Below, one piece after another: positions 359 to 30,782 of a stretch of DNA of 32,000 bases. The stretch comes from Candidatus Saccharimonadota bacterium (GTDB lineage Bacteria; Bacteroidota; Bacteroidia; Cytophagales; Amoebophilaceae): contig NZ_OW441264.1 of assembly GCF_936981045.1 (NCBI RefSeq), forward strand, positions 600,001-632,000, given 5' to 3'. Within the stretch, counting starts at the first letter, position 1. Each line of letters begins with the position of its first letter. Below the pieces are notes generated by a model that was not told where the DNA came from, searched no databases, and worked only from the letters and a program-made list of their open reading frames with translations. Position numbers and translations under genes: made by a program.

Positions 359-1827
359 ATGAAAAGAAAAGAGACAGTTAAAGATGGGATAAGCAAGGCC
401 ATAGATGTACTGATAGAATCAGGTGTAGACCTTTCCAGACTTTTTGATCAAGACGGCTTACTCAAACAATTAAGTAAGCGTCTTGTAGAAAAAGCATTAC
501 AGTCAGAAATGGATGACCATTTAGGTTATAACGTGAGTTCGGGATTAGATTATTTTTTCATTTGATAATCAATATCAATGAAAATTTATAAAATTTGTTT
601 TATTAGACAATTAAATAGGTAGTTGAATAACAAATAATTCTGGTAATCAGTTTATTATGTATGTTATATTTATAAAATTAGATATAAAAACTTGTTAAAT
701 AAGTGCAAATATTAACTAAATAATTGATATTAAATTGTTGTAAATCAGTCAAATAAATCCCGAACTCACGTTTATAATAAGTATGCACGTAGTGATTCAG
801 AGAATGTACGTAATGGATTATTCAGTAAGCACGTTATTACTGATAATGGCGTTATATCGGTTGAAGTACCCAGAGATAGAGCATCGACTTTTGAACCTAT
901 TTTATTGCCTAATCGTCAAACAAGAATTCCTAGTTTGGATGATAAGATCTTATCTTTATATGCTAAAGGTATGAGTCTGTCAGATATTCAGATTCAAATA
1001 CAGGAATTATATGGCGCAGAAGTAAGTGAAAGCCTGATAAGTAACATCACAGACTCTGTTATTAAAGATGTTAAGATATGGAAAAATCGTCCCTTAGAAT
1101 CAGTCTATCCTATTGTTTTTTTTGATTGCTTTGTAGTTAAAGTTAGACAAGATAAGCGCATCATCAACAAGGCAGTCTATGTCGCTTTAGGTATAGATAG
1201 ATCTGGCATAAAGGATGTTTTAGGGCTTTGGATGAGTGAAAATGAAGGGGCTAAATTTTGGTTAGGCAATTTAACAGAACTCAAAAATCGGGGTATGAAC
1301 GATATGCTCATTGCATGTACAGATAATTTGTCAGACATGTCTGAGGCCATTGCTGCTGTATACCCAAAAACGGAACATCAGCTCTGTATTGTTCATGCAA
1401 TTAGGGGTAGTTTGCAGTATGTTTCTTATAAACATAGAAAGGTATTAGTTGCTAATTTAAAACCAATTTATACAACAGTTACCGAGCAAGAAGCATTGAT
1501 GGCCTTAGAAGCTTTTGCTACTAAGTGGAATCAACAATACCCACAAATAGCCCAATCTTGGTATGCTAACTGGGATAATCTGATGGTATTTTTACAGTAC
1601 CCTAATGCCATACGTAAGGTCATTTACACAACAAATGTTTGGAATCTGTAAATAGCCAATTTCGTAGAGTTATCAAAAATAAAAGAGTGTTCCCTAACGA
1701 TCTAGCTGTTTTTAAAACATTATATCTAATTATTAACTACATGACTAGAAAATGGACCACCTCTATTCATAACTGGAGCGAGGCTATGGCACATTTTTTA
1801 ATTAAATTTGAAAACAGAATTGAATAA
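359..1827 (+). pseudogene. IS256-family transposase, split by MITE-1 (531-771) and frameshifted near 1630
   Basis: The N-terminus ...LQSEMDDHLGY(N) stops in the MITE. The frame resumes at 772 as YNKYARSDSENVRNG...VPRDRASTFEPILLP, joining the ORF at 905-1651. The C-terminus (ESVNSQFRRV...) is in another frame at 1639-1827. Confidence 0.85.
531..771 (+). mobile_element. MITE-1 copy 2 (241 bp, non-coding, inside the IS256 transposase gene)
   Basis: 16-bp perfect terminal inverted repeats ACGTGAGTTCGGGATT / AATCCCGAACTCACGT. It is flanked by the direct repeat TTATA. The interior is AT-rich with no ORF. Confidence 0.9.
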
Positions 1828-1866: not shown

Positions 1867-1955
1867 CATCTGATCAATTTATTGTATGACTTTAAAACTA
1901 AACGATACGGAAAATAAATTAAAAGATTTTTGTCCGAATTTTTCAGTCCATTATA
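1867..1955 (-). mobile_element. IS3-family 5'-terminal fragment (left inverted repeat plus leader up to the start codon)
   Basis: Nearly identical to 24654-24741, the 5' end of the inverted IS3 copy. It ends in TGTCCGAATTTTTCAGTCCATTATA, which is the complement of the IRL at 13291-13315. Confidence 0.7.
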
Positions 1956-1965
1956 CTTTGAAAAT

Positions 1966-3987
1966 ATGAAAAGCCTTAAAACCAATTTAGATTTAAACCC
2001 AGTATACCCTCCTTCTGATACCATCCAAAAAAGAGCATATATTTCATCATTAGATGAATACCTAAAAATGTATAACGCCTCTATTGAGGATCCAGTGCAA
2101 TTTTGGGAAAACATATCAGCACAATTTTTTTGGAAAAGTAAGCCAGCTGGTCGATTTCTGAGCTATAATTTTGACCTACAAAAAGGGCCCATTTTTGTAA
2201 AATGGATGGAAGGTGCCTCAACTAATATTTGTTATAACCTAGTGGATAAACATGTTCAAGATGGGTATGGAAATAAGGTTGCCTACTATTGGGAAGGAAA
2301 TGAGCCAAGTGAACAAAAACAAATCACCTACCAAGCGTTGCTTCAAGCTATTTGTAAATGTGCAAATGTTTTAAAATCTCTGGGCATAACAAAGGGAGAC
2401 CGAGTAGCTATCTATATGCCGACCACTATAGAGGCTATAGTAGTAATGTTAAGTTGCGCCCGCATTGGTGCGATCCATACTGTTATCTTTGCAGGCTTTT
2501 CAGCAGATGCACTAGCAGAACGCATGATAGCGGCAAAAGCAAAACTCTTGATAACGGCTGATGGAACATTTCGTGGAACAAAATTTATTCCACTTAAGTC
2601 GATTGCCACCCAAGCATTGATACAATGTAAAGCAGCTGATCATCCACTCCACCATTGTATTGTTTTTAATAGACTGCAGACTATTAAGCAACCGAGCAAT
2701 ATACCAGATATCCCATGGGACGATTCCATGGATCACTCGTGGGAAGCACTGATCGCATCTGCATCAGATGTATGTGAACCTGAGTGGGTTGATGCTGAGG
2801 ATCCGCTATTTATACTGTATACAAGCGGTTCGACTGGAAAGCCAAAAGGGGTGGTACATACCGGTGGAGGATACCTGTTATATGCAGCAACTGCATTTAA
2901 ATATGCATTTGATTATCATCCAGAAGATATATTTTTCTGTTCTGGAGATTTAGGCTGGATTACAGGACATACTTTCAATGTTTACGGCGCACTTGCCTGT
3001 AGAAGCACCTCTGTTATATTTGACGGCATTCCAACCTACCCAGATGGAGGTCGCTTCTGGGATTTGATTGACAGATATAAAGTAACGACATTTTATACAG
3101 CGCCCACTGCGATTCGAACCCTTATGAAACTTGAATCGTCCTATGTTACAAAACATAACAGAACCTCCCTTCGTATACTTGGTTCAGTTGGTGAGCCTAT
3201 TGATCCTTCAACCTGGACCTGGTTGTATGAGGTAGTTGGTGCAAAGCGCTGTCCGATCATTGATACCTTTTGGCAGACAGAAACAGGCGCGCCCATAATT
3301 TGTCCACTTCCTGGATTTACGCCATTGAAACCTGGATCTGCTACACTCCCTTTTTGGGGTATTGTGCCAACCATCGTTGATGATCATGGCGTTGACATTA
3401 TAGGTGAAGGAAAAGGACATCTTGTTATCAAAAATCCCTGGCCAGGAATGGCACGGACCATTGATGGGCATCATCAGCGGTTTCAATCCACCTATTTTGA
3501 GCCATACAATGGGTACTACTACACAGGCGATAGTGCAAAACGTGATGCAGATGGGTATTTTTGGATAACAGGTAGAACAGATGATATGTTGAATAGATCA
3601 GGTCACTTGATATCAACCGCTGAAATTGAGTCTACATTGATGCAACACCCATCAGTGGCAGAAGCGGCTGCTGTCTCTGCATCGCATGCCATAAAAGGCG
3701 AATCCATCCATTGTTTTATTGTATTAAAAAACGGATGGTTGTATAATCAAATGATTGATTCTGAGATCAAATCAATCGTTCGAAATAAGCTAGGGGCCTT
3801 TGCTGCTCCAGATCTGGTGTACCCTGTACCCGCTCTACCTAAAGTAGGTTCTGGGAAAATAATGCGCCGGCTGCTCAGAAAAATAGTTCGACAAGAAGTG
3901 CATTTCGGTGATACCTCCACACTAGTTGATCAAAATATTATTGATTGGCTGCGCATACTTACCCTACATAAGGTTAAGATTTCTTAA
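1966..3987 (+). CDS. acs: Acetyl-CoA synthetase (AMP-forming)
   Basis: Full-length ORF with the AMP-binding signature YTSGSTGKPKG, ...WQTETG... and a C-terminal ...GKIMRR motif. ATG 1966 is preferred over the track start at 1930, which lies inside the IS3 terminal repeat. Confidence 0.9.
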   Translation: MKSLKTNLDLNPVYPPSDTIQKRAYISSLDEYLKMYNASIEDPVQFWENISAQFFWKSKPAGRFLSYNFDLQKGPIFVKWMEGASTNICYNLVDKHVQDGYGNKVAYYWEGNEPSEQKQITYQALLQAICKCANVLKSLGITKGDRVAIYMPTTIEAIVVMLSCARIGAIHTVIFAGFSADALAERMIAAKAKLLITADGTFRGTKFIPLKSIATQALIQCKAADHPLHHCIVFNRLQTIKQPSNIPDIPWDDSMDHSWEALIASASDVCEPEWVDAEDPLFILYTSGSTGKPKGVVHTGGGYLLYAATAFKYAFDYHPEDIFFCSGDLGWITGHTFNVYGALACRSTSVIFDGIPTYPDGGRFWDLIDRYKVTTFYTAPTAIRTLMKLESSYVTKHNRTSLRILGSVGEPIDPSTWTWLYEVVGAKRCPIIDTFWQTETGAPIICPLPGFTPLKPGSATLPFWGIVPTIVDDHGVDIIGEGKGHLVIKNPWPGMARTIDGHHQRFQSTYFEPYNGYYYTGDSAKRDADGYFWITGRTDDMLNRSGHLISTAEIESTLMQHPSVAEAAAVSASHAIKGESIHCFIVLKNGWLYNQMIDSEIKSIVRNKLGAFAAPDLVYPVPALPKVGSGKIMRRLLRKIVRQEVHFGDTSTLVDQNIIDWLRILTLHKVKIS

Positions 3988-4098
3988 CTCGCGTATGGGG
4001 CAATCCCCGCCTATTTTGTACCTTTATATAGTTTGTATCTGGTGTACGTCTATGCTACGGCTTTGCTATAGGCTATATCGTAACATGATCCTATCAAT

Positions 4099-5547
4099 AT
4101 GGAACAAAAAACATTTATCTCTACACATGGTTCTGCAGCAAAAAGCCTACCCAAACCGCCTGGCACACACAACCCTCTGTTGCATAGAAAACTATATATA
4201 GAAAGCTACGGCTGCCAAATGAATTTTTCGGATAGTGAAATAGTAGCTTCTATCATGGCCCAGCAAGGTTTTGTGTTTACAGACCAGTATCATGAGGCAG
4301 ATCTCATTCTCATCAACACATGTGCCATTCGGGATAAAGCTGAACAAACTATTCGCAATAGACTATTGGTTTTTAACCAACAAAAGATAAAACAGCCAGA
4401 TCTTATTGTAGGTATATTGGGTTGTATGGCAGAACGGCTTAAAACACAATTACTAGAAGAGGAAAAAGTTGTTGATTTGATAGCGGGTCCAGATGCCTAT
4501 AGAGACCTTCCCAGATTAATTAGTCAGGTAGATCAAGGGCATAAGGCAGTCAATACCTTTTTGTCTAAAGAAGAAACCTATGCCGATATTGCCCCTATTC
4601 GGTTACATTCAAGTGGTGTAACTGCTTTTATCTCTATTATGAGGGGATGTAATAATATGTGCTCTTTTTGCATTGTGCCTTTTACCCGAGGGCGTGAACG
4701 AAGCAGAGATCCCTACTCCATTGTCCAAGAGGCTAAAAAATTGTTTGAAGTAGGCTATAAGGAAATTACCCTTTTAGGACAAAATGTAGATTCTTATAGC
4801 TGGAACCCATCTATTTCAACAGCTGCTGGGTCGCAGCATCATACATCCAGTGATCAGGTGATTCACTTCTCCCAATTACTAGCCATGGTGGCCGAGATTG
4901 ATCCCAATTTAAGGGTTCGTTTTTCTACTTCTCATCCTAAAGATATGACCGATAAGGTATTGTATACGATGAAGGCCTATCATAACATCTGTAAGCACAT
5001 TCACCTCCCCGTTCAAAGTGGCAACAACCGTATCTTAAAGCTAATGAATCGTACTTATGATCGGGCATGGTATATGGAAAGAATTCATGCTATTAGGAAT
5101 ATTTTAGGTCCATCTTGTTCGATTTCTTCTGATATGATTGCAGGATTTTGCTCTGAAACAGAAGAAGAGCATGCAGATACGCTCTCTCTAATGGATTGTG
5201 TGCAATATGATTTTTCTTTTATGTTTTACTATTCCGAGCGGCCGGGTACGTTAGCTGCCAGAAAATATCCAGACGATCTTTCAGAAGCAGTTAAAAAACG
5301 TAGATTAAGTGAAATTATAGCCAAGCAACGTGAACATGCCTTGATGCACAATCAAAAAAGCATAAATCAGGTTTATCAAGTGTTAATTGAAAAATGCTCC
5401 AAAAAATCAGAAGCATTTTTTCAAGGTAGAACCAGTCAAAATAAGATTGTTGTATTCCCCAAAGGGACCTATAAAATAGGAGATTACGTAGACGTAGAGA
5501 TTACCAATTGCAATGCAGCGACCCTATTTGGCACTGTGGTATCATAA
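4099..5547 (+). CDS. miaB: tRNA-i6A37 methylthiotransferase MiaB (radical SAM)
   Basis: N-terminal [15 protein letters not shown] (UPF0004 domain), the radical-SAM cluster motif [11 protein letters not shown] and a C-terminal TRAM-like region. Confidence 0.9.
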
Positions 5548-5558
5548 GCATATGAGCT

Positions 5559-6800
5559 ATGAAAGAAGATCTTCAATATATCAAACAACGGTTTAATATT
5601 ATTGGAAACGCTCCATTATTAAATAGAGCTATTGAAATAGCGATGCAGGTCGCTTCTACTGATCTATCCGTTTTAATCATAGGTGAAAGTGGTACTGGCA
5701 AGGAATCTTTTTCAAAGATTATTCATGCACTGAGTCCCTACCGTCATGGTAGCTTTATAGCTATTAATTGTGGAGCTATTCCAGAAGGTACAATAGATTC
5801 TGAACTTTTTGGCCATGAAAAAGGAGCCTTTACGGGTGCCCTAGAAAGCCGAAAGGGATATTTTGAAGAAGCAAATAGTGGCACCATTTTTCTAGATGAG
5901 ATAGGTGAAATGCCTTTGGGGACACAAACTAGACTTTTACGTGTATTAGAATATGGAGAATATGTAAAAGTAGGTTCCTCTAGCGTACAAAAAACCAAAG
6001 TGCGTGTAGTAGCTGCTACGCATGTAGATTTACTCTATGCCATTAAACAAGGCAAATTCCGAGAAGATTTGTATTACAGGCTCAATACAATTCCGATTAA
6101 CATACCCCCTCTGCGTGAACGTGATGCAGATATTATACAGTTATTTCATAAATTTTCCAGTGATTTTGCTACTAAATACCGCGTTAAGCCTTTAGAAATC
6201 AGCCCAGATACAAAAGATATTTTGCGCACCTATCCATTTCCGGGTAACATCCGACAGTTGAAAAATATTGTTGAGCAAATGGCACTGCTTGAAGAGGTGG
6301 GTATGGTTACACCAAAGGTAATAGAGAAGTATTTACCGAAAATACAAAGCCATACGTTACCAGTTCTGTATAAGAAATGGAAGGATAATGGACTGCTTGA
6401 AAAAGAATATATCTATCCCATCCTCTTTGATGTAAAAAGAGATATTGCAGAATTAAAAGCATTAATGTTTAATTTTATGGAATCCGGCGCTATTAAAAAT
6501 CCTATTCTAAAAGAACATACTCGCCTTGGAGCCTGCAGTGACCAAGAAAACATATCCAAAAAGATCCACTTTTTAGATACAGCGCAATCTTTTAAAGAGG
6601 ATAATCTAAATTACATAGGGGCATCCTATACAGGAGAAAATCTTTCTATTGAAGCCCAAGAACAAGCGTTAATTCGTAGATCTCTGCAAAAAAACGATGG
6701 AAATCGTAAAAATGCAGCTGATGATTTAGGGATTTCTGAAAGAACGCTCTATCGAAAAATTAAACAATATGAGATTGAAGAATCTGATTTTAAGCAATAG
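5559..6800 (+). CDS. Sigma-54-dependent transcriptional activator (AAA+ EBP) without an N-terminal receiver or sensor domain
   Basis: Walker A GESGTGKE lies about 40 aa from the start. The sigma-54 contact loop GAFTGA is present, along with a C-terminal Fis-type HTH (AADDLGISERTLYRKIK). Confidence 0.85.
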   Translation: MKEDLQYIKQRFNIIGNAPLLNRAIEIAMQVASTDLSVLIIGESGTGKESFSKIIHALSPYRHGSFIAINCGAIPEGTIDSELFGHEKGAFTGALESRKGYFEEANSGTIFLDEIGEMPLGTQTRLLRVLEYGEYVKVGSSSVQKTKVRVVAATHVDLLYAIKQGKFREDLYYRLNTIPINIPPLRERDADIIQLFHKFSSDFATKYRVKPLEISPDTKDILRTYPFPGNIRQLKNIVEQMALLEEVGMVTPKVIEKYLPKIQSHTLPVLYKKWKDNGLLEKEYIYPILFDVKRDIAELKALMFNFMESGAIKNPILKEHTRLGACSDQENISKKIHFLDTAQSFKEDNLNYIGASYTGENLSIEAQEQALIRRSLQKNDGNRKNAADDLGISERTLYRKIKQYEIEESDFKQ

Positions 6801-7299
6801 CCTATACTTTTTTTTTAGTTTATTATGGGGTTGTGGTCTTTTTACTTTCTCAGGTGTTTCGCTCTCTCCTAATGTAAAGACCTTTTCTATTCAGTTTTAT
6901 ACAGAAGTTTCAGATGGCCCAACAGATATGCCGGACAAGCTTACTGAAGCACTTGCAACACAAATATTACGCATAACCAACTCTTTAACCAGAGAAGAAA
7001 AAGATGGTGACATCCAATATGAAGGCGTAATTAAGTCCTTTTCGTATCGTACAACCTTCAGTACAAAAGATAATGATCAGGATAAGGAGCTTAAAGAAGT
7101 ACAACGTTTAACCATAACCATAGAAGTTTCTTACTTGAATCCTTCTAATGAAGCGTCTTCATTTAAGAAAAAACAATTTTCGGCTAGCGCAGATATAATG
7201 TCTACTGAAGATCAATCAAAAAAAGAACCTGAGTTGATTGAGTTAATTGTTCGTCAACTAGTAGATGATATTTATAATAAATCCATAGATAATTGGTAA
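6769..7299 (+). CDS. LptE-like lipoprotein (putative LPS-assembly lipoprotein)
   Basis: Signal peptide with a lipobox-like LLWGC. Size and position (after the sigma-54 activator, before secG) match the arrangement I recall in Bacteroidota. The family assignment is tentative. Confidence 0.45.
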   Translation: MRLKNLILSNSLYFFFSLLWGCGLFTFSGVSLSPNVKTFSIQFYTEVSDGPTDMPDKLTEALATQILRITNSLTREEKDGDIQYEGVIKSFSYRTTFSTKDNDQDKELKEVQRLTITIEVSYLNPSNEASSFKKKQFSASADIMSTEDQSKKEPELIELIVRQLVDDIYNKSIDNW

Positions 7300-7318
7300 G
7301 ATTCAAATTGTTTTTACC

Positions 7319-7954
7319 ATGCAAGTTCAAAAACTATTAAAATTATTGGCGCAGCCTTCAACGCTTTCTCCAGCAGACGTGCCTGATTTAGAGGAACTTA
7401 TAAAAAGATACCCCTATTTCTACTTAGCCCATGCGCTCCTTGCTAAGGCAACTTATACACAGGAGAAAGATGTAGAAAAGTATGCGGTTCAAAGGGCTGC
7501 TACCTATGCTATTGACCGCACACATTTGCGCGCATGGTTGGAAGACAAACTTTCCTTACCGCCCATTGTTAGAAACGCCAACGCTAAACCTATGCAGGAA
7601 CCCTCTGCTACCGTTAATAATTATCTGGAAATAATTGCTAAAAAGTCTCTTAAAAAGAGTACGAATGAAAATAGTATCAAACAGTTCTCCGTTATAGACA
7701 CTATTTTAAATAAAAATTTGCAGTTTGATCCTTGTATGGAAGCAATGCCATCACACGAGGAAGTATCTGTAGATCTTTCCGAACAAGCTACTACTTTAGA
7801 CGATCGTTTTGCAACTGAAACATTAGCTAGAATAATGATCCAGCAAAAAAAATATAAACGTGCAATTGAAATTTATAGCCATTTAATATCAAAGCATCCT
7901 GAAAAAAAATCGTATATTGAGGGGATCATTGCTAATTTAAATAGTAATCTTTAG
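7319..7954 (+). CDS. Hypothetical protein with a C-terminal TPR-like repeat
   Basis: 211-aa ORF, tightly packed between neighbouring genes. C-terminal ARIMIQQKKYKRAIEIYSHLISKHPEKK is TPR-like. Confidence 0.4.
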   Translation: MQVQKLLKLLAQPSTLSPADVPDLEELIKRYPYFYLAHALLAKATYTQEKDVEKYAVQRAATYAIDRTHLRAWLEDKLSLPPIVRNANAKPMQEPSATVNNYLEIIAKKSLKKSTNENSIKQFSVIDTILNKNLQFDPCMEAMPSHEEVSVDLSEQATTLDDRFATETLARIMIQQKKYKRAIEIYSHLISKHPEKKSYIEGIIANLNSNL

Positions 7955-7956
7955 TT

Positions 7957-8343
7957 ATGTCTATATTCAATCTGCTTACTATATTTATCATTATAGTAGC
8001 CATTCTATTGCTTGGTGCTATTTTACTGCAAGAGCCTAAGGAACGGATCACCCCTTCAGGTGGAGGCTCAGCTTCCGTGCAACGCATTGGCATTAATCAA
8101 AAGGCAGACTTTTTAGAAAAAGCTACTTGGGTATTGATAGGATTATTGCTCTTTTTAACCCTCTTGTCTTCTATTTTTCTTAAAGATGCACTAGAGTCAA
8201 ATAGGAGTCCCAATTTGGTTAAAGCTCAGAAGGACCAAGCATCAAACACCACAGCCGTTCCAAGCACTACGGATGATGCAGCTATTACCCAAGAGGATCA
8301 GAAACCTGCATCTAATGCAACAAACGCTGCTTCTAAAAACTAA
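7957..8343 (+). CDS. secG: Preprotein translocase subunit SecG
   Basis: Small two-TM protein with LLQEPK...GGG after TM1, and a low-complexity C-terminal tail. Confidence 0.65.
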   Translation: MSIFNLLTIFIIIVAILLLGAILLQEPKERITPSGGGSASVQRIGINQKADFLEKATWVLIGLLLFLTLLSSIFLKDALESNRSPNLVKAQKDQASNTTAVPSTTDDAAITQEDQKPASNATNAASKN

Positions 8344-8395
8344 CTTTCAAGATAAAAGAGCGTATCAATGTTTGTTAATACAAATGGTTATGTAT

Positions 8396-9007
8396 ATGAA
8401 AGTAATCAACATAAGGAAGTCTATCCCAGTTTTTTTTGCCTATTTTCTTGTAGCACATCCATCACGCGCTGTTGGATTGACTACGGGGCCATCTTTAGGT
8501 ATAGCTGGGTTTCATACTAGTTTTGACTTAAAACTGCAACGCCAAAAAATCTCTACGGATAATATGGCATTACAGGTGGGGTGCTTTGCAAAGTTAGATG
8601 TTTGGCTTTTATATGCTAGGTTAGATGCCTTGTTTGTATTAGATTGGCGTAAATTACCCAATAAATCGAAGCGACACCATTTTAAATCTATTACCCTACC
8701 CTTGACGATTGGTCTACCTCTTTTTGATCTCTTTCGGCCTCATATTGGTCTTGTGTTTCGGCTACCTATTGGTGTAGATGATGCGAGGTTTAAAGGCAAC
8801 TGCCTTATAAAAAGCTATAAAGAAAAAATCAATGGCTATATATTAGGTTTGGGTATAGATCTAGGCAATATTTTAATGGATGTCTATTGGGAATTTGCGC
8901 GATCACCAGTAGCTAGAAAATCTATAAGCGATGCCCTGATAGATGGTCATAAACAGTATAGACCTGGGCAACTTACCTTAAGGGTCGGTTACAACTTACT
9001 GGGCTGA
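8396..9007 (+). CDS. Hypothetical exported protein, possibly an outer-membrane beta-barrel
   Basis: The in-frame ATG at 8396 gives a signal peptide (MKVINIRKSIPVFFAYFLVAHPSRA). The body has alternating hydrophobic beta-strand-like periodicity. The upstream part of the track ORF overlaps secG and is unlikely to be coding. Confidence 0.4.
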   Translation: MKVINIRKSIPVFFAYFLVAHPSRAVGLTTGPSLGIAGFHTSFDLKLQRQKISTDNMALQVGCFAKLDVWLLYARLDALFVLDWRKLPNKSKRHHFKSITLPLTIGLPLFDLFRPHIGLVFRLPIGVDDARFKGNCLIKSYKEKINGYILGLGIDLGNILMDVYWEFARSPVARKSISDALIDGHKQYRPGQLTLRVGYNLLG

Positions 9008-9136
9008 TATAAGGAAATGACATGATATTCTACTTTTTGCTTGATCAAAAAGCTACTATTTTTTATCCTTATAGCTTAAGCACTAGTTTTCTAGGTACCT
9101 ATTCAGCAGTCTGGCCATGCTACGAAAAAAATACAA

Positions 9137-9302
9137 ACCCGTCCTTTATAAAAAGTTGCGATGAGAAAGCACACCTTGCAGCTGATCAGAAAAACAGCAT
9201 GTTTGCAGCCCGCATAGCGGGCAAATTCTATTTTTCCAGCTGCAAGGTGTAGTTTTAAGAACTTTTTGCAGAGGGCTTTATTTTTTGCACACTTTTTTAT
9301 CA
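9137..9302. repeat. Structured intergenic repeat, copy a (continues at 9543-9573 after the MITE)
   Basis: Homologous to 15481-15599 (right part) and 28837-28910 (left part). It contains 14-bp inverted arms ACACCTTGCAGCTG (9171-9184) / CAGCTGCAAGGTGT (9237-9250), an inner GCCCGC-ATA-GCGGGC hairpin and an 11-bp terminal stem (9288-9298 / 9550-9560). Confidence 0.6.
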
Positions 9303-24904: not shown

Positions 24905-27900
24905 TTAACTATCTTGGTCTTTATCCTTGTTTTTCTCTTTTTCTCTTTCTTCTTCCTTACTTTTACACACCTCTAGTGCCTGTTTAGCTGCTTCTTCTAA
25001 TACTACTCCTATCTCTGGACCTAAGTATGTGTTGGCTATCTGCACATCTATGGCCAAAGTTTCTTGCGCCATATGTTGCACTTCTGTTAGTTGGATATAA
25101 CCTGCTGCATGACATAGGTCATAGAGCCGTTCGGCCAGTTTGATAAAGAGCACAGAAAGCTGTACATGCTCTTCCTTAATCGCTTCTTTCAATCGATTCT
25201 TCACATGCAGCAACGAAGGATGGTCTAACGCTTGCCGCTTATCTATACCTACTACATTCAATACAAAGGCATATACACCAAAGTTATAATGTTCCTTAAT
25301 ATAAGAAAGGGGCAAACAAGTACGGCGCACCAATCCATAGAGTAAAGCAGCATAGATCACTTTAGGGGAATGAAACACCCATTCTACTACTAATGTTGCA
25401 ATACCTACTGCCCGAACGTAAAATAATTGACCCGATTCATGCCGCTTAAAGCCAAAGTGCTTCCGCAGCAATAAAAGCAAACCTGAAATCGTTTTCATAT
25501 CAATAGGATCTTCTTGAAGAGAAGATTTGGAGACATAGTCATGAAATTGCATTAATACCATCATCGAATCGGCTTGCTCTTTAGGCGTAACAGGGGTTTC
25601 TAAGGTTAAGGCATCTATGGGTAGTGTGGTAGTTATCTTACCGAGAATCTCAGTAACATCATTAGGCAGCACCAGTAGCATAGTGGGTTGCTTTTGGTCA
25701 CTAGCATCTTCTAAACAGCCATAGTGAGCCCCAATAACATTGGATATGGTTTGCTGTTGGAGATCTATAGATGGTGGGGCTTCTTTTCGCTCTTGAGAGG
25801 TTGTAAAATTTATTACATCAGCGTAAGACGCTTTTACTTTTGGAAGCAAATCAGCAGGAGTAGTAGCTTGGCTTATTACCAGGGCAGTAGCTTGGAAAAT
25901 CAGGCATACAGGATCGCTACCGTCAAAAGGATCTGTTTGCTTAAATTGTAAAACAGTGGGGTGCAGTTGTATGCGCACAACTGGTGCATAGGATCCCTCT
26001 GGCTTACCAACCCGCAAAACACTCTGCACCAATGAGTAGACTACTTGGTGGATATCGCATACAATATAAGGGCATGGTCCTTTATTAGGATCGTTTATTT
26101 TTTCTACCAGAAGTCTAGGCGGCTCATCGATCTCTTGGGATAACGCTACTTCCACCTTACGGATCAGCTTATCTAAAGTAATTTTAGTAGGCTGCAGTAG
26201 TGCATGTTCCTTGGCCCTTTCCTTTTTATTGAAATAGATCACCCAATCATAAAACTTATTGATAATGCTCTGGAAATCTTGCTTATAAAGAGTCATATTG
26301 CTATCTAAAAAGGAGATAGATTCTTCAATTTTACGCACTACTTGTGTTAAAACAAATCCATAACCCCTAGGTTTAGGAAAAGTACCCCTATTAGAGGAAA
26401 CTAGAGCCGCTTCATAGAGGGAGGCTTTTAGATTTTGGTTTTCCCTGATCTTTTCGTGGTCTTTTAGGTAAAGAATTTGTCCAGTAAGGTCACCTACTTT
26501 GACTTTAAAACAGATAATAACAGTAAATAGCAATAGGCTCGCTATAAATAGCGGAAATAGGGAAGATAATAGTGGGAAAGACAATCCAGCAGCAATAGGA
26601 TAAATGGCTACTAATGAAGTAACTGCTACAACCCCTATGCCCAGATAGAGGGGTAATAGCCATAAGATTATAGCACAATGGGTCAAAAATAAGGATGCGG
26701 TAAAGATTGGATCCACCAGATGCCACCAGTTCCAAAGCAGATCTATAGGAAAGTAAAGGGCCAACCCTATAAGCCAACATAGGCCAATAAACCAGCTTGG
26801 AATTGATTTGCTAAAGAAAGTTTTATAGCGGGTGAATAGGCCATAAGATGCAAAAAGAAAACCTACAACCACTTGGCATATAGCCTTGTGCAAGCAGCCT
26901 TGCTTAAGAAACCAATAACCTAGAGTAGCAGTAGCGATTATATAGAGACCCGTTAAGCATAAGATAGCATCACTGGGTCTTAGCTTGGCCAAGGTGGTTG
27001 CTTTATTGACCCAAGCATTTTTAATGGCCTCTTTTCGTTCTGCGCGCTTGCGGGCGTTTTCCTGTTGGATTTGTTTAAACTGGTAATCTGGACCAACCCA
27101 ACCTGCACTTTCTGGGTGTTTCAGTAGATAATGGGCAGCCATCATGGCTAGGGCATTGGCTAGCATACAAATAAAAGCACCATCTATACCAATTGTGGAC
27201 TTAACCCACTTATTCCAAGCTAAAATAGATAGCGCACCTGTAGCCATACCAATTAAAGCCGTACGGGAAGTTCCTCGAAAGCTAAAGATAGCTAATAAAG
27301 CCGGGGCAGTAATTACTGGAAGAGAAAAGGCAAAAGACAACATAAGTAAATCCAGCAGATCCTTGCAATAAAAAGTCAAAAACATGCTAAGTAGGCCCAC
27401 TACTAAGGTGGTCCATCTAGCTATCTTAAGTTGACGCACGTCATCAATTTCTTTTTCCTTTGGTAGACTTTCCAAAATATCATGGCCAACCATAACAGCA
27501 CAAGAATTTAAATAAGAATCAGCTGTAGACATAGCCATGGCGAGTAAACTAGTACAAACCATACCCCTAAAAATAGGGGGAATATTAGTCATTATATGAT
27601 ACCAAATATCTTTGATTGGTAGTGTTGGTATAGCTGCAAAAACAAATAGACCAATCAAAAGTATGACACTACTTATCACAACACTAAAAAGGCTGGTATA
27701 CAAAAATATTCTTCTTGCTTGAGTAGGCCCAGAAGACATATAGACTCTTTGCATAACTGCAGGTACCCCCAGATCAGGAACCATAATACATAGAGCCATC
27801 GCAACCATACCCACTAGTTTAGTATCAAAATGGAGCAGACTACTAAACTGAAATTTTTCTTGCGTTTGTAGCAAAGAAACCACTTCTACAATGGATTTAC

Positions 27901-28570
27901 CTGTTTTTTTAAACATAAACCAAGCCAAAAATGGAATAATTATAGTAAAGGTCACAAACTGCAAGATATCTGTAAAGGTAACTGCACGAACACCGCCAAA
28001 CATAGAATAGAAAATAAGGATTAAGGCAGCAAAGACGGTAATAATTCGGGGATTAAACAAATCTAGATCTACACACATGCTAACTGCCTGGGCCATTGCA
28101 ATGATTTGCATAGTAATTGCAACAATAGATCTACAAATACCAACCAAAGCTGTAATAATCCTTGGGTACTTACCATAGACATTACCCATCGTTTCTGCAA
28201 TAGAAAGGTTTTGCATAAATGGCCCCATACGTAACATCAACCGACTAAAGAGCCATATACTGAAACTATTCACACCCACAATAAGGATGATCCAGTAAAG
28301 GCCAAAGTTATATACTTGTTGTACATTAAATACTAAGCCCCCCCCACTATACAAAGTAGCCAATACGGTAGCCACCAAAGTAGCGGTAGCAAATTGCTTA
28401 TTCCCCACCGCATATTCCCGAAAGGTGGTTTCCTTTCTACTAAAGTAGATCCCCACTACCAAGGTTAATACCAAAAAAGTAGACACTATAAATAGCGACT
28501 CATTAAAGCAGATCATAAAGAATGCTGTTAAAAAGGTTAAAAAATACTTACAGATACACAAGCAACACAA
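24905..28570 (-). CDS. Multidomain membrane protein: sodium:solute symporter (SSS) domain, a second TM block, a degenerate kinase-like module and a catalytically inactive RelA/SpoT-type HD domain
   Basis: 1221-aa uninterrupted ORF (M19 at 28516 is an alternative start). aa ~20-484 are SSS-like multi-TM. aa 536-688 contain about 5 more helices. aa ~835-975 are HATPase-like but degenerate. aa 1024-1199 align motif by motif to the RSH hydrolase domain with the catalytic residues replaced. The tail is acidic/lysine-rich. Confidence 0.8.
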   Translation of the reverse strand: MCCLCICKYFLTFLTAFFMICFNESLFIVSTFLVLTLVVGIYFSRKETTFREYAVGNKQFATATLVATVLATLYSGGGLVFNVQQVYNFGLYWIILIVGVNSFSIWLFSRLMLRMGPFMQNLSIAETMGNVYGKYPRIITALVGICRSIVAITMQIIAMAQAVSMCVDLDLFNPRIITVFAALILIFYSMFGGVRAVTFTDILQFVTFTIIIPFLAWFMFKKTGKSIVEVVSLLQTQEKFQFSSLLHFDTKLVGMVAMALCIMVPDLGVPAVMQRVYMSSGPTQARRIFLYTSLFSVVISSVILLIGLFVFAAIPTLPIKDIWYHIMTNIPPIFRGMVCTSLLAMAMSTADSYLNSCAVMVGHDILESLPKEKEIDDVRQLKIARWTTLVVGLLSMFLTFYCKDLLDLLMLSFAFSLPVITAPALLAIFSFRGTSRTALIGMATGALSILAWNKWVKSTIGIDGAFICMLANALAMMAAHYLLKHPESAGWVGPDYQFKQIQQENARKRAERKEAIKNAWVNKATTLAKLRPSDAILCLTGLYIIATATLGYWFLKQGCLHKAICQVVVGFLFASYGLFTRYKTFFSKSIPSWFIGLCWLIGLALYFPIDLLWNWWHLVDPIFTASLFLTHCAIILWLLPLYLGIGVVAVTSLVAIYPIAAGLSFPLLSSLFPLFIASLLLFTVIICFKVKVGDLTGQILYLKDHEKIRENQNLKASLYEAALVSSNRGTFPKPRGYGFVLTQVVRKIEESISFLDSNMTLYKQDFQSIINKFYDWVIYFNKKERAKEHALLQPTKITLDKLIRKVEVALSQEIDEPPRLLVEKINDPNKGPCPYIVCDIHQVVYSLVQSVLRVGKPEGSYAPVVRIQLHPTVLQFKQTDPFDGSDPVCLIFQATALVISQATTPADLLPKVKASYADVINFTTSQERKEAPPSIDLQQQTISNVIGAHYGCLEDASDQKQPTMLLVLPNDVTEILGKITTTLPIDALTLETPVTPKEQADSMMVLMQFHDYVSKSSLQEDPIDMKTISGLLLLLRKHFGFKRHESGQLFYVRAVGIATLVVEWVFHSPKVIYAALLYGLVRRTCLPLSYIKEHYNFGVYAFVLNVVGIDKRQALDHPSLLHVKNRLKEAIKEEHVQLSVLFIKLAERLYDLCHAAGYIQLTEVQHMAQETLAIDVQIANTYLGPEIGVVLEEAAKQALEVCKSKEEEREKEKNKDKDQDS

Positions 28571-28836: not shown

Positions 28837-28910
28837 TTGTCCTTTTTGAATCATACGATCAGAAAGAACACCTTGCAGCTGATCAAAAAAATAGTTTAAT
28901 GGAGGCCACA
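28837..28910. repeat. Structured intergenic repeat, copy c (left part only, truncated by the IS256 type C fragment)
   Basis: TTTGTCCTTTTTGAATCATACGATCAGAAAGAACACCTTGCAGCTGATCAAAAAAA is homologous to 9137-9195. Confidence 0.5.
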
Positions 28911-29088
28911 GGAAGTGTTCAATGAACTGTGTCACAGTACCGCTCTATCTCAACTCGAACTTTAACCTACCGAGAAAAAAGATGTCGAGCTGAGATATCG
29001 TTTTTATACAAGGTTTATACTGGTAAATGCTCCCTTTGTCTTAGTAAATTGTCTAATCTGCCTGTGCAAGCTTTCTATGGGATGGTTC
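28911..29088 (-). mobile_element. Inverted partial copy of the IS256 type C right end (~178 bp)
   Basis: It is the near-perfect reverse complement of ~30192-30371, including the terminal repeat GGAAGTGTTCAATGAACTGTGTCA and the last transposase codons (TNPTESLHRQIRQFTKTKGAF). Confidence 0.85.
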
Positions 29089-30371
29089 GGAAGTGTTCAC
29101 TAAACTGTGTCAAATCTTTAAAAAGTTATAATTTGCATACTTAACAGATAAAGGTTTTAGACATAGAAGAAACAATGCATAATGACTACGTTGGCTTAGT
29201 AGATTAACAAATCTCTAGAGGCAAATATTTTATCCTCTATCCGTTTAGGTAAGCCTTTAACAGGCAAAGGTGGTGCTTTAACGCCTCTGATAAAAAAGCT
29301 TTTAGAGGCAAGTCTAGAAGGTGAAATGGCACACCATTTATCTAGTGATTCACGAGAAAATAATAGAAGAAATGGCAAAAGCTCTAAAACTTTTCGTACA
29401 AGCTCTGGTTCATTTGATTTAGTAACCCCTAGGGATAGGACAGGTAGTTTCGATCTGCAAATAGTTAAAAAGCGTCAAACAAGTTTACATCCTGAGCTGG
29501 AAACCAAGATCTTAAGCATGTTTTCTAGTGGTATGAGGTATAATTCTATAGCGTCTCATGTTGAAGAAATTTATGATCATAAAGTGCCAGCTGCTGAAAT
29601 ATCGGCTATTACAGATAGCTTGTTACCGGTAATAAATGAATGGCGTAACCGTCCTCTTCAATCAGTTTATCCAATAGTTTTTATGGATGGCATGTTTTTT
29701 AAGGTGAAAGAAGATGGAAAATGTGTAAGTAAATGCATATATACCTTATTAGGCATAGATCAGGAGAGGAAAAAAGAAATATTAGGCTTCTATTTGTCTG
29801 AAAGTGAAGGTGCTAACTTCTGGCTAGGTGTACTTAACGAACTTAAGGAAAGGGGTGTAGAAGATATCCTTATTGCCTGCGTTGATGGCCTAAAAAGCTT
29901 CCCTTCATCCATAAATACCGTTTTTCCTAATACACAAGTTCAGGTCTGTATAGTACATCAGATACGCAACACACTCAAATATGTAGCTAGCAAAGATGTA
30001 AAACGTTTTTTAACTGATTTAAAGCAAATATATCAAGCCTCAAGTAAGGAAGTTGCTGAACATTATCTATTGGAACTGGAAGAAAAATAGGAAAAAAAGT
30101 ATCAGATGGTTACCAAATCTTGGCAAAATAATTGGGACCATTTATCTGCTTATTTTAGGTATTCAGGTTCTGTCAGAAGGCTAATTTATACAACCAATCC
30201 CACAGAAAGCTTGCACAGGCAGATTAGACAATTTACTAAGACAAAGGGGGCATTTACCAGTATAAATTCCTTGTATAAAAACGATATCTCAGCTCGACAT
30301 CTTTTTTCCCGGTAGGTTAAAGTTCGAGTTGAGATAGAGCGGTACTGTGACACAGTTCATTGAACACTTCC
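29089..30371 (+). mobile_element. IS256-family insertion sequence, type C (degraded)
   Basis: The IRL GGAAGTGTTCACTAAACTGTGTCA (29089-) resembles the reverse complement of the right end GGAAGTGTTCAATGAACTGTGTCA (-30371). The transposase is related to type A but clearly distinct from it. Confidence 0.8.
29175..30315 (+). pseudogene. IS256-family transposase (N-terminal frameshift, in-frame TAG at 30088, truncated C-terminus)
   Basis: MHNDYVGLVD* is followed by a shifted frame ...LTGKGGALTPLIKKLLEASLEGEMAHHL.... A TAG replaces the Trp expected in LELEEK*EKKYQ, and the frame also shifts by 1 nt between that stop (30088-30090) and the ORF at 30106-30315 (...YTTNPTESLHRQIR...), which carries the end and runs into the terminal repeat. 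Confidence 0.8.
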
Positions 30372-30542
30372 TACAAATAGCAAAATTACACTATCGACCT
30401 ATCACAACGGTCTCAACTCTTTTTAAACTCGTTAACTGAAGTAGAGCTCCTTTCCTCTTGAATGGTTTCCCAATCAATACTAACGGTAGTATGAGCCCCG
30501 CAGACTTCTGATATCACCTCTATTGACTTCGCTTTACTTATA

Positions 30543-30782
30543 ACGTAAGTTCGGGATTTATTTTACTGATTTACAACAATTTAATATCAATTATTTAGTT
30601 AATATTTGCACCTATTTAACAAGTTTTTATATCTAATTTTATAAATATAATATATATAATAAACTGATTATCAGAATTATTTTTTATTAAACTACCTATT
30701 TAACTGTCTATAAAACAAATTTTATAAATTTTTATTAATATTGATTATCAAATGAAAAAATAATCTAATCCCGAACTCACGT
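30543..30782 (-). mobile_element. MITE-1 copy 6 (inverted orientation)
   Basis: 240 bp, the reverse complement of the other copies. Termini are ACGTAAGTTCGGGATT and AATCCCGAACTCACGT. The flanking repeat is imperfect (TTATA / TATTA). Confidence 0.85.

What the first reader, a model, noticed from the sequence alone, without database searches (positions are those of the whole stretch)
24905..28570. Solute symporter fused to a catalytically dead RelA/SpoT-type HD domain (candidate transceptor)
The translation shows four parts. aa ~20-484 have the multi-TM layout of SSS/SLC5 (PutP/PanF-like) transporters. aa 536-688 form a second block of about 5 hydrophobic helices. aa ~745-975 look like a DHp plus HATPase-like module, but I find no phospho-acceptor His box and the N/G boxes are degenerate (tentative). 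aa 1024-1199 (nt 24974-25501) align by eye, motif for motif, to the (p)ppGpp-hydrolase HD domain of RelA/SpoT homologues. The matches are SGQLFYVRAVGIATLVVE vs SGEPYIxHPxxVAxILAE, AALLYGLVRRT vs AALLHDxxEDT, and FGVYAFVLNVVGIDK vs FGxxVAxLVxGVTKL. Further matches are LFIKLAERLYDL vs ILIKLADRLHNM, and AQETLAIDVQIANTYLG vs ARETLEIYAPLAHRLG. Every residue known to bind Mn2+ or act in catalysis is substituted (His of HP to R, HD to YG, ED to RR, and D..HN to E..YD). The fold therefore seems retained as a pseudo-enzyme. A transporter covalently linked to a dead alarmone-hydrolase domain suggests coupling of solute flux to nucleotide sensing or to partner recruitment. I know of no characterised example, and it is the only large intact accessory-looking gene in a sea of decay, which argues for selection.
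Basis: partly seen in the sequence, partly recalled or inferred. Interest (0 to 1): 0.8.

Follow-up and report, generated by a model that had tools for sequence, protein, structure and literature searches.

The report
Transporter with dead kinase–alarmone-hydrolase tail
This insect-symbiont (Cardinium) gene encodes a sodium-coupled nutrient transporter whose cytoplasmic tail is a histidine-kinase module plus a (p)ppGpp-hydrolase domain, both catalytically dead, yet the dead hydrolase is the gene's best-conserved part, so it probably has a non-enzymatic role that is still unknown.

Summary
ORF 24905-28570 (-) encodes a 1203/1221-aa protein with four modules. They are an SSS/SLC5 transporter (Pfam E 9e-19), six extra TM helices, a DHp+CA histidine-kinase fold lacking every kinase motif, and a RelA/SpoT-type HD domain with all catalytic and metal-binding positions substituted.

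It is not a one-off. It belongs to a multi-copy family found in every Cardinium genome sampled (window = Cardinium of Oedothorax gibbosus). Homologues in Amoebophilus asiaticus and Bacteroidota MAGs (one labelled Roseivirga) have the same architecture with intact HD motifs. A Rickettsiaceae MAG homologue carries an intact kinase.

The dead HD is the most constrained domain (dN/dS 0.13, against 0.30 for the transporter). Within a genome the tails are near-identical while the transporter cores differ. Two paralogues are 100% identical in DNA except across codons ~50-400.

Cardinium, including this genome, also keeps a ~370-aa RSH with intact synthetase motifs but a dead HD.

Most likely this is a Na+-coupled importer with a shared, non-catalytic dimerising or regulatory tail. 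Nucleotide sensing or partner control remains possible.

The literature records the family only as "putative sodium/solute symporters" or a "rickSpo expansion". I rate it a new variant of a known kind (CbrA-type transceptors; RelA-type pseudo-hydrolase).

The parts
24905..28570 (-). Whole ORF: 1221 aa from TTG at 28570. The probable true start is ATG at 28516 (M19), giving the 1203 aa annotated by NCBI. Stop codon at 24905-24907.
27119..28498 (-). SSS/SLC5 transporter core (aa ~25-484, about 13 TM helices). The Na2-site Ser-Thr is kept in 'AMAMSTADSYLNS' (aa 344-356).
   Evidence: Pfam SSF E 9e-19. NCBIfam sss/PanF/PutP hits all lie far below their cut-offs. PDB profile hits: CHT1 E 2e-22, SiaT E 3e-19. 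Alignment to SiaT 5nv9. Hydropathy. AF2 model.
26969..27118 (-). Cytoplasmic basic helix linking the SSS core to the second TM block (aa 485-534). It sits where CbrA-type proteins carry a STAC domain.
   Evidence: AF2 helix at model residues 478-503. No STAC or PAS hit in Pfam at E<=10.
26504..26968 (-). Second membrane block of six TM helices (aa ~535-689). The last helix runs without a break into the cytoplasmic DHp-like helix (aa 665-722).
   Evidence: This is the least conserved part among paralogues (36%).
26201..26503 (-). DHp-like helical hairpin (aa ~690-790) with no phospho-acceptor histidine.
   Evidence: AF2. Foldseek hits to HK DHp-CA. Profile alignments to ThkA and ZraS. Alignment to the intact HK homologue L003, where the H-box region falls in a deletion.
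25646..26200 (-). CA/HATPase-like alpha/beta domain (aa ~791-975). N-box Asn is Q, G1 'DxGxG' is 'HPTVLQF', G2 is absent, and 'HGG' survives as the family-invariant 'AHYG' (aa 948-951).
   Evidence: Invariant columns.
25502..25645 (-). Linker between the pseudo-kinase and the HD domain (aa 976-1023).
24974..25501 (-). Pseudo-HD domain of RelA/SpoT hydrolase type (aa 1024-1199).
   Evidence: Pfam HD_4. Family profile against Rel/SpoT PDB chains E 3.6e-33. Foldseek hits to SpoT and RelSeq. dN/dS 0.13.
25118..25414 (-). Span holding the substituted catalytic positions: R1053 (for the His of HP), Y1078-G1079 (HD), R1082-R1083 (ED), E1147 (Asp), Y1150-D1151 (HN).
   Evidence: Intact residues in homologues.
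24908..24973 (-). Low-complexity Lys/Glu/Asp-rich C-terminal tail (aa 1200-1221), not conserved.
23680..24219 (-). Flanking truncated IS3-type transposase fragment (HTH_21 only).
29326..30090 (+). Flanking truncated Mutator/IS256-family transposase fragment.

Best explanation
The gene encodes a Na+-coupled SSS importer for an unidentified host-derived solute. Its cytoplasmic tail is a non-catalytic relic of a signalling output: a pseudo-histidine-kinase (DHp + CA fold) followed by a pseudo-(p)ppGpp-hydrolase (SpoT-type HD).

Inferred history: an SSS + 6TM sensor kinase lost its kinase chemistry and gained a SpoT-type hydrolase output. That form, with intact HD motifs, survives in Amoebophilus asiaticus and in Bacteroidota MAGs. 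In the Cardinium lineage the hydrolase was inactivated in every copy, but the domain was kept.

Inferred mechanism: the protein dimerises through the DHp-like four-helix bundle. The last TM helix is continuous with DHp helix 1, so the membrane domains and the tail are mechanically coupled. The tail acts as a shared regulatory, scaffolding or partner-binding module rather than as an enzyme. The transporter cores of the paralogues have diversified for different substrates.

Shown: the architecture, the loss of catalytic residues, selection on the tail, and the mosaic evolution of the paralogues. Inferred: transport activity, dimerisation, and what the tail regulates.
For: Architecture and fold.

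Transporter probably functional: the Na2-site Ser/Thr and the SSS signature columns are at least 90% conserved across the family.

All kinase and hydrolase catalytic residues are absent.

Homologues mark the inferred stages:
- L003, a Rickettsiaceae MAG: SSS + 6TM + intact HisKA/HATPase_c.
- Aasi_0939 of A. asiaticus and Bacteroidota MAGs, one labelled Roseivirga: pseudo-HK + intact HD.
- Cardinium and some Amoebophilaceae MAGs: dead HD.

The pseudo-HK module occurs essentially only in this architecture: 483 clusters, with full-length hits of about 1110-1245 aa.

Purifying selection acts on the whole gene and most strongly on the dead HD: dN/dS is 0.13 for HD, 0.21-0.23 for the pseudo-HK and 0.30 for SSS. 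The HD is the most conserved domain among 80 Cardinium paralogues (68% against 56% for SSS) and between deep lineages (0.56).

Within a genome the tails are 79-93% identical while the SSS domains are 57-63% identical. Nearest-neighbour analysis shows the same split. L081 and L082 are 100% identical in DNA except across codons ~50-400.

[quoted passage not shown] I did not map those 12 genes onto this family.
Against: No experiment exists on any member. The substrate cannot be assigned: every NCBIfam equivalog score is far below its cut-off.

Part of the within-genome tail conservation is concerted evolution, not selection.

Shorter members without an HD exist, such as L001 (925 aa) and several 650-1050-aa Cardinium entries. 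The HD is therefore not indispensable for every copy, although many of these look like fragments or pseudogenes.

Dimerisation and coupling are inferred from the histidine-kinase analogy and a monomer model.

Cardinium keeps an RSH with an intact-looking synthetase. That favours a more specific alarmone-related role than generic 'regulation'.
Confidence: 0.55

Rival explanations
1. Alarmone-linked transceptor. The dead HD has become a receptor that binds (p)ppGpp or a related nucleotide without cleaving it. Alternatively it docks and controls the genome's short, CTD-less RSH synthetase. Either way, nutrient uptake and alarmone level would be coupled. The transporters would replace the ribosome-sensing C-terminal domains that the Cardinium RSH has lost.
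For: Every Cardinium genome sampled, including this one (P0298, 370 aa), keeps an RSH with intact synthetase motifs, a dead HD, and no TGS/ACT.

No intact RSH-type hydrolase was seen among the Cardinium proteins retrieved.

The pseudo-HD is the most constrained domain.

Two metal or catalytic positions are replaced by conserved Arg (R1053, R1082), while K1144, R1148 and T1084 are kept. This predicts a basic, metal-free pocket (inference).

Homologues with an intact HD imply that the ancestral tail acted on (p)ppGpp.
Against: The residues aligned with RelSeq R44/K45 are also changed (H1044, E1045; the RelSeq roles are recalled from memory).

No binding or interaction data exist.

The RSH gene lies next to an SSS-HD paralogue in one genome (L081) but not in two others (L083, L084).

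The whole genome was not scanned for other hydrolases (Nudix, GppA, stand-alone small alarmone hydrolases).
Confidence: 0.22
2. Vestigial tail. The C-terminal module has no function in Cardinium. It persists only because recombination among paralogues keeps copying it and deletions have not yet occurred.
For: Within-genome homogenisation of the tail, with 100% DNA identity between two paralogues.

Truncated or split copies lacking the HD exist.

Catalytic decay recurs independently in other members of the family.

The genome is generally eroding: IS fragments and broken opp permease genes lie in the same window.
Against: Between genomes, where gene conversion cannot act, the HD has the lowest dN/dS in the protein (0.13 at dS 0.75).

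It also shows the highest identity between deep lineages (0.56, against 0.28-0.30 for the pseudo-HK).

About 90 full-length copies keep the reading frame open through roughly 520 tail codons.

The substituted residues are themselves conserved.
Confidence: 0.12
3. The protein is still an enzyme. Either the HD hydrolyses (p)ppGpp or another phosphoester with non-canonical residues, or the kinase-like module still binds or turns over ATP.
For: A genome with a synthetase usually needs a hydrolase (general knowledge), and none other was seen.

Acidic residues persist at two of the four metal-ligand positions in many paralogues: E1147, and D/E at position 1079 in other copies.
Against: Both His metal ligands, the ED diad and the HN Asn are all replaced.

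PF01966 does not match the Cardinium proteins, although it matches the intact homologues.

The H-box, N, G1 and G2 motifs are all missing, and Pfam gives no HisKA or HATPase_c hit at E<=10.
Confidence: 0.04
4. Assembly or annotation artefact joining a transporter gene to an HD gene.
For: None found.
Against: The same continuous architecture occurs in about 90 Cardinium proteins and in dozens of homologues in Amoebophilus and Bacteroidota MAGs, several on contigs over 1 Mb. The ORF is uninterrupted.
Confidence: 0.01

Closest known systems
SLC5/STAC sensor kinases CbrA, CrbS and MxtR ('transceptors') of Pseudomonas and Vibrio
   Same: An N-terminal 13-TM SSS/SLC5 transporter domain is covalently fused to a cytoplasmic DHp-CA histidine-kinase fold. 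One polypeptide combines transport with a signalling-type module (PMC7918813, PMC7096432, PMC13022988).
   Different: Here there is no STAC and no PAS domain. A basic helix and six extra TM helices connect the transporter to the DHp instead.

The kinase is dead: no His, N, G1 or G2.

The C-terminal output is a SpoT-type HD domain, not phosphotransfer to a response regulator.

The family is multi-copy rather than single-copy.
Pseudo-hydrolase (inactive HD) domain of RelA and other [hS] long RSHs
   Same: Both are RSH-family HD folds that have lost the His/Asp metal ligands and the ED diad, yet are retained under selection with a non-catalytic (regulatory or structural) role. That role for RelA is general knowledge, and Atkinson 2011 (PMC3153485) uses the [hS] notation. 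The fold match is shown.
   Different: In RelA the dead HD sits next to an active synthetase in the same soluble protein. Here it is the C-terminus of a membrane transporter with no synthetase domain. Cardinium has in addition its own short [hS] RSH.
Small alarmone hydrolases (SAH), in particular the 'rickSpo[H] expansion' reported for Candidatus Amoebophilus asiaticus
   Same: The same HD_4 domain family. The intact-HD homologues (for example Aasi_0939) are most probably the proteins counted as the Amoebophilus rickSpo expansion (PMC3153485). That identification is my inference.
   Different: SAHs are defined as proteins holding only the HD domain. These are roughly 1150-1200-aa membrane proteins, and the Cardinium members lack the catalytic residues, so the label [H] does not apply to them.
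'Putative sodium/solute symporter' expansions of Cardinium (12 in cEper1) and Amoebophilus (19)
   Same: Very probably the same gene family. They are reported as expressed, some very highly, with function unknown (PMC5698495, PMC8831229). The NCBI names match.
   Different: Those papers treat them as plain nutrient transporters. They do not describe the pseudo-kinase, the SpoT-type domain, its inactivation in Cardinium, or the mosaic evolution.

Membership tests
Sodium:solute symporter family (SSS/SLC5, PF00474, TC 2.A.21) | Profile match above the curated threshold | tested here: met
   PF00474: 68.1 bits against a gathering score of 22.8, full-length match to model positions 1-406.
Sodium:solute symporter family (SSS/SLC5, PF00474, TC 2.A.21) | About 13-TM LeuT-fold core with Ser/Thr at the Na2 site (TM8 of the core) | tested here: met
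   Hydropathy and the AF2 model. S-T aligns with SiaT S342/S343 and is at least 90% conserved across the family. The SiaT residue numbers are recalled from the literature.
Sodium:solute symporter family (SSS/SLC5, PF00474, TC 2.A.21) | Na+-coupled solute transport; substrate identity | not testable with these tools
   All NCBIfam equivalogs (PanF, PutP, MctC, ActP) score far below their cut-offs.
RSH superfamily hydrolase (HD) domain / small alarmone hydrolases | HD_4 profile match and Rel/SpoT hydrolase fold | tested here: met
   PF13328: 28.9 bits against 27.2. Family profile against Rel/SpoT chains E 3.6e-33. Foldseek hits SpoT 7qpr and RelSeq 1vj7 at rmsd 3.4-4.1 A.
RSH superfamily hydrolase (HD) domain / small alarmone hydrolases | Metal ligands (His of HP, HD dyad, Asp of DxxHN) and the catalytic ED diad | tested here: not met
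   R1053, Y1078-G1079, R1082-R1083, E1147, Y1150-D1151. PF01966 does not match, although it matches the intact homologues.
RSH superfamily hydrolase (HD) domain / small alarmone hydrolases | (p)ppGpp hydrolysis or binding | not testable with these tools
   Needs biochemistry.
RSH superfamily hydrolase (HD) domain / small alarmone hydrolases | SAH definition: a protein consisting of the HD domain only | tested here: not met
   The HD is the last roughly 180 aa of a 1203-aa membrane protein.
Histidine kinases (HisKA/DHp + HATPase_c) | DHp helical hairpin plus Bergerat-fold CA domain | tested here: met
   AF2 model plus Foldseek hits to ZraS, RetS, CckA and HK853, prob 1.0, E 2e-6 to 1e-4. Profile hits ThkA at 3.3e-7.
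Histidine kinases (HisKA/DHp + HATPase_c) | Phospho-acceptor His (H-box) and the ATP-binding N, G1 and G2 boxes | tested here: not met
   No conserved His at the H-box. N is Q, DxGxG is HPTVLQF, and G2 is absent. No HisKA or HATPase_c Pfam hit at E<=10. The homologue L003 has all of them.
SLC5/STAC sensor kinases (CbrA/CrbS/MxtR) | N-terminal SLC5 domain fused to a kinase-type module | tested here: met
SLC5/STAC sensor kinases (CbrA/CrbS/MxtR) | STAC domain after TM13 and a PAS domain before the DHp | tested here: not met
   No such Pfam hits. A basic helix plus six TM helices occupy that position.
SLC5/STAC sensor kinases (CbrA/CrbS/MxtR) | Active kinase with a cognate response regulator | tested here: not met
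   Kinase motifs are absent. A partner response regulator was not searched for.

The most novel reading that the evidence does not exclude
The family would be a previously unrecognised class of transceptors that wires nutrient transport directly to alarmone metabolism.

In members with an intact HD (Amoebophilus, Bacteroidota MAGs), substrate transport would gate a membrane-tethered (p)ppGpp hydrolase through the pseudo-kinase dimer.

In Cardinium the hydrolase has turned into a non-cleaving (p)ppGpp receptor, or into a docking site for the genome's CTD-less, synthetase-only RSH. On that reading a dozen transporters with swappable substrate-binding cores would report host-metabolite supply to a single alarmone circuit that has no canonical hydrolase.
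Probability: 0.2. Interest if true: 0.85.

Novelty: new variant of a known kind. Interest (0 to 1): 0.63.

Why it matters
How obligate intracellular symbionts sense host nutrient supply is largely unknown. So is whether the stringent-response machinery still matters in their reduced genomes.

This family is multi-copy in Cardinium. The putative SSS genes reported in the literature, which probably correspond to it, are transcribed, some very highly. The family therefore offers a concrete handle on both questions.

It links a transporter, through a kinase-derived transmission module, to a SpoT-type domain. That domain has intact motifs in some lineages and is dead but strongly constrained in Cardinium. 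The genome meanwhile keeps only an RSH that looks synthetase-only.

The family gives RSH biology a natural active/dead pair for testing non-catalytic roles of the HD fold. It gives transporter biology a second, independent lineage of SLC5 'transceptors'. The cassette-like variation of the transporter core inside otherwise identical genes is also a striking example of paralogue recombination in a reduced genome.

Tried and rejected
- The genome-contig scan with the alignment of intact-HD members was saturated by ordinary Rel/SpoT genes, because the pattern LLHDxVEDT is shared. Only L001-L004 were informative, so the taxonomic survey is incomplete.
- hhalign of the pseudo-kinase profile against the single intact-kinase homologue aligned only the 'AHYG/AHEG' region, at low probability. 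I relied on MAFFT, BLASTP, Foldseek and the PDB profile hits instead.
- I tested whether the stand-alone HD next to the L002 transporter is closer to the fused HDs than to Rel HDs. It is equally similar to both (about 42-47%), so this says nothing about fusion or fission.
- I tested whether the short RSH gene is syntenic with an SSS-HD paralogue. It is in one genome (L081) and not in two others (L083, L084), so I rejected synteny as evidence of linkage.
- The contig look-up for the RSH of this window's own genome (P0298) found nothing on record.
- Literature searches for a Cardinium Rel, ppGpp or stringent-response description found nothing specific.
- No further paralogue fragments occur in this window.
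- I considered and rejected an active CbrA-like kinase, an active hydrolase, and an assembly artefact (see rival explanations).

Full report

Yes. The minus strand carries one uninterrupted ORF at 24905..28570, 1221 aa from a TTG. NCBI annotates the same gene from the ATG at 28516, giving 1203 aa. This is P0001 = WP_250237615.1 of 'Cardinium endosymbiont of Oedothorax gibbosus', 100% identical. That identifies the source of the window.

- SSF PF00474 at aa 53-445, E 9e-19.
- HD_4 PF13328 at aa 1036-1180, E 1.1e-6, 28.9 bits against a gathering score of 27.2.

No HisKA, HATPase_c, PAS or STAC hit appears even at E<=10.

Hydropathy and a full-length AlphaFold model (mean pLDDT 83, pTM 0.70) give these parts:
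- an SSS core of about 13 helices;
- a basic cytoplasmic helix;
- six further TM helices at aa ~534-689;
- a final TM helix that continues unbroken into the first cytoplasmic helix (aa 665-722).

**2. The middle region is a dead histidine kinase.**

An AlphaFold model of aa 690-1205 was built on 51 sequences (pLDDT 79.8). It shows a helical hairpin, then an alpha/beta sandwich, then an all-helical domain.

Foldseek against the PDB puts DHp-CA fragments of histidine kinases on top: ZraS 9jfj, RetS 6dk7, CckA 5idj and HK853 2c2a, with E 2e-6 to 1e-4 and probability 1.0. SpoT 7qpr and RelSeq 1vj7 follow for the last domain, at rmsd 3.4-4.1 A over about 200 columns.

A profile of the middle region alone hits ThkA (3.3e-7), ZraS (6.6e-5) and VicK (1e-3) by sequence.

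In those alignments, and in an alignment with an intact-kinase homologue:
- the H-box falls in a deletion;
- the N-box Asn is Gln;
- the G1 'DxGxG' is 'HPTVLQF';
- G2 is gone;
- only the 'HGG' position survives, as the family-invariant 'AHYG'.

**3. The C-terminal domain is a dead SpoT-type hydrolase.**

A family profile matches Rel/RelA/SpoT hydrolase domains of solved structures at E 3.6e-33.

In a MAFFT alignment of 96 full-length homologues, every Cardinium protein carries these substitutions (query numbering):
- the His of 'HP' is Arg (R1053);
- 'HD' is Y-G/E/D (Y1078-G1079);
- 'ED' is R-R/H/Y (R1082-R1083);
- 'DRxHN' is 'ERxYD' (E1147, Y1150-D1151).

Homologues of identical length and architecture keep RxSGEPFYLHP / LLHDxVEDT / KLADRxHNMRT. 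They score 1e-22 to 1e-30 on HD_4 and also hit PF01966.

The roles of these residues (Mn2+ ligands and the ED diad of RelSeq) are established knowledge recalled from the RSH literature. They were not tested here.

**4. It is a family, and the comparison gives a history.**

The first protein search returned about 90 full-length homologues from every Cardinium assembly sampled. At least 14 lie on one 1.19-Mb C. hertigii contig and at least 8 in the Philonthus symbiont. An artefact is excluded.

The second search showed where each HD type occurs:
- Intact HD motifs: Candidatus Amoebophilus asiaticus Aasi_0939 (P0128), Amoebophilus sp., Amoebophilaceae MAGs and Bacteroidota MAGs (one labelled Roseivirga sp.).
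- Dead type: Cardinium and a few uncultured Amoebophilaceae (P0100-P0104, P0122, P0124).

A genome scan was largely saturated by ordinary Rel genes but still found three informative relatives:
- L003, a Rickettsiaceae MAG, encodes a 965-aa SSS + 6TM protein with a fully intact kinase (HisKA 8e-9, HATPase_c 7e-23; THELRLP, NLIINSIKFS, DEGIGI, GRGIGL).
- L002, also a Rickettsiaceae MAG, has SSS + 6TM + pseudo-kinase, with a convergent, separate 193-aa intact HD gene next to it.
- L001, an Amoebophilaceae MAG, has the pseudo-kinase but no HD.

BLASTP homology between L003 and the family runs continuously from the SSS domain into the DHp region.

An exhaustive HMMER search with the pseudo-kinase profile found 483 clusters (118 at E<=1e-30). 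The full-length hits are always about 1110-1245 aa with the module at about 670-1000. The module is therefore specific to this architecture.

Among 42 new full-length representatives, about 27 have intact HD motifs. About 15 show differently degraded motifs, so catalytic loss has happened repeatedly.

The inferred order is: SSS sensor kinase, then pseudo-kinase plus active SpoT-type output, then pseudo-kinase plus pseudo-hydrolase in Cardinium.

**5. Selection and mosaic evolution.**

Mean identity among 80 Cardinium paralogues, by domain:

| Domain | Identity |
|---|---|
| dead HD | 68% |
| SSS | 56% |
| DHp-like | 48% |
| CA-like | 44% |
| second TM block | 36% |

Codon-based dN/dS between the window gene and a Philonthus-symbiont paralogue:

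| Domain | dN/dS |
|---|---|
| HD | 0.13 (dS 0.75) |
| CA-like | 0.21 |
| DHp-like | 0.23 |
| SSS | 0.30 |
| second TM block | 0.32 |

The dead domain is thus the most constrained part.

Within one genome the tails are nearly uniform, while the transporter domains are as divergent as between lineages:
- HD identity is 79-93% within a genome. In the 1.19-Mb C. hertigii genome it is DHp 0.87, CA 0.83, HD 0.93.
- SSS identity within a genome is 57-63%.
- The nearest neighbour lies in the same genome for 28 of 34 tails but only 16 of 34 SSS domains.

At the DNA level, two Philonthus paralogues (L081, L082) are 100% identical over two stretches. The first covers 240 bp upstream plus the first ~50 codons. 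The second covers codon ~400 to the stop plus 270 bp downstream. They are only 55-71% identical across codons ~50-400, the transporter core.

So recombination keeps a common frame and tail around variable substrate-binding cores. Part of the within-genome conservation is therefore concerted evolution. The between-genome dN/dS and the deep-lineage identity (HD 0.56 against 0.28-0.30 for the pseudo-kinase) still show real constraint on the HD.

**6. The rest of the alarmone system.**

Two genes from one paralogue in L081 lies a 371-aa RSH. A third protein search shows that this ~366-376-aa protein occurs in all Cardinium genomes sampled. That includes the genome of this window (P0298, 370 aa, on a contig of the same length, 1,137,202 bp).

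Its alignment with long Bacteroidota Rel proteins shows the following:
- intact synthetase motifs (RIKSVYSIW, DLTAIRII, YESLH, EVQIRT, AAHW.YK);
- a dead N-terminal HD ('AILTPAFLAG' in place of 'ALLHDVVEDT');
- no TGS/ACT region.

So Cardinium appears able to make (p)ppGpp. None of the HD domains I saw, neither its own nor the transporter-borne ones, has hydrolase residues. I did not scan the whole genome, so another hydrolase may exist. The gene adjacency is not conserved.

**7. How it most likely works.**

The transporter core looks functional. The Na2-site Ser-Thr in 'AMAMSTADSYLNS' aligns with SiaT S342/S343. That motif and other SSS signature columns are at least 90% conserved family-wide. 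The substrate cannot be named.

The tail cannot phosphorylate or hydrolyse. Its fold, the continuous TM-to-DHp helix, and the strong constraint on the HD point to a dimerising, conformationally coupled, non-catalytic module shared by all paralogues. I give this 0.55.

The more specific reading is that the dead HD binds an alarmone or the short RSH. I give this 0.22. A purely vestigial tail gets 0.12, residual enzymatic activity 0.04, and artefact about 0.01.

**8. Comparison with what is known.**

The closest systems are these:
- The SLC5/STAC sensor kinases CbrA/CrbS/MxtR, called 'transceptors' (PMC7918813, PMC13022988).
- The pseudo-hydrolase domain of RelA-type RSHs.

The protein fails membership of the CbrA class (no STAC, no PAS, no active kinase). 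It fails the enzymatic definition of an RSH hydrolase or SAH. It passes for SSS.

The family itself is on record:
- as 12 and 19 'putative sodium/solute symporters' of unknown function, expressed in Cardinium and Amoebophilus (PMC5698495, PMC8831229);
- as a 'rickSpo[H] expansion' in Amoebophilus (PMC3153485);
- as 'spoT.../sodium glucose cotransporter' homologues (PMC6232779);
- as possible MITE-like fragments (PMC12039267).

In the papers I could search, none describes the pseudo-kinase, the inactivation of the HD in Cardinium, the kinase ancestry, the mosaic paralogues, or the link to the truncated RSH.

**9. Verdict.**

The corrections are that the gene is not unique and that its function is untested. 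I rate it a new variant of a known kind, with interest 0.63.

Noticed in passing
L081 3001-6552 and L082 3001-6552 (Cardinium of Philonthus spinipes, OZ034918.1): Two paralogues are 100% identical in DNA over the upstream 240 bp plus codons 1-~50, and over codons ~400-1183 plus 270 bp downstream (including a yceG fragment). They are only 55-71% identical across codons ~50-400, the SSS core. This is a variable transporter-core cassette in a constant frame, which implies very recent recombination.
   Followed up: partly
L081 7624-8739 (-); P0298 in the genome of this window (not inside the window): All Cardinium genomes sampled encode a ~370-aa RSH. Its (p)ppGpp-synthetase motifs look intact, its HD is dead, and it has no TGS/ACT domains. 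NCBI nevertheless names it 'bifunctional (p)ppGpp synthetase/hydrolase'. No intact RSH-type hydrolase was seen in Cardinium.
   Followed up: partly
L003 5992-8889; L002 5983-8976 and 8965-9546 (-); both labelled Rickettsiaceae MAGs: Homologues of the SSS + 6TM frame occur in Rickettsiaceae MAGs. One has a fully intact histidine kinase. The other has the pseudo-kinase plus a convergent, 12-nt-overlapping stand-alone intact SpoT-type HD gene. This hints at fusion/fission, or at exchange between Rickettsiales and Amoebophilaceae.
   Followed up: partly
P0179, P0188, P0204, P0216, P0222, P0231, P0233, P0239, P0245, P0255, P0257, P0262, P0285 (metagenomic family members): HD catalytic motifs are degraded in different ways in many non-Cardinium members. 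Loss of hydrolase chemistry is therefore recurrent in this family.
   Followed up: partly
window 24501-24607, with copies at 1-70, 673-779, 9444-9544, 18468-18569, 30541-30641; also 24652-24742 ~ 1865-1955 and 13289-13431; 28910-29000 ~ 30282-30372: Short (~90-145 bp) dispersed repeats at 76-99% identity (most 93-99%), MITE-like, lie on both sides of the gene and elsewhere in the window.
   Followed up: no
window 905-1651, 14638-15159, 21994-22422, 23680-24219, 29326-30090: Five truncated transposase ORFs: two Mutator/IS256-family, two DDE_Tnp_1, and one IS3-type with HTH_21 only. None covers its full Pfam model.
   Followed up: partly
window 15773-19784: An intact OppA-like solute-binding protein (580 aa) is followed by five short ORFs of 111-192 aa, some overlapping. 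The first hits only the N-terminal part of an ABC permease. This looks like a decayed oppBC.
   Followed up: no
window 5559-6800 (+): A sigma-54 activator (AAA+ Sigma54_activat plus HTH_8) starts directly with the ATPase domain. It has no receiver or other N-terminal regulatory domain.
   Followed up: no
window 1930-12766: Intact housekeeping genes lie in the same window: acetyl-CoA synthetase, a MiaB-type radical SAM enzyme, LptE, SecG, DnaN and DHFR. The window is not uniformly decayed.
   Followed up: partly
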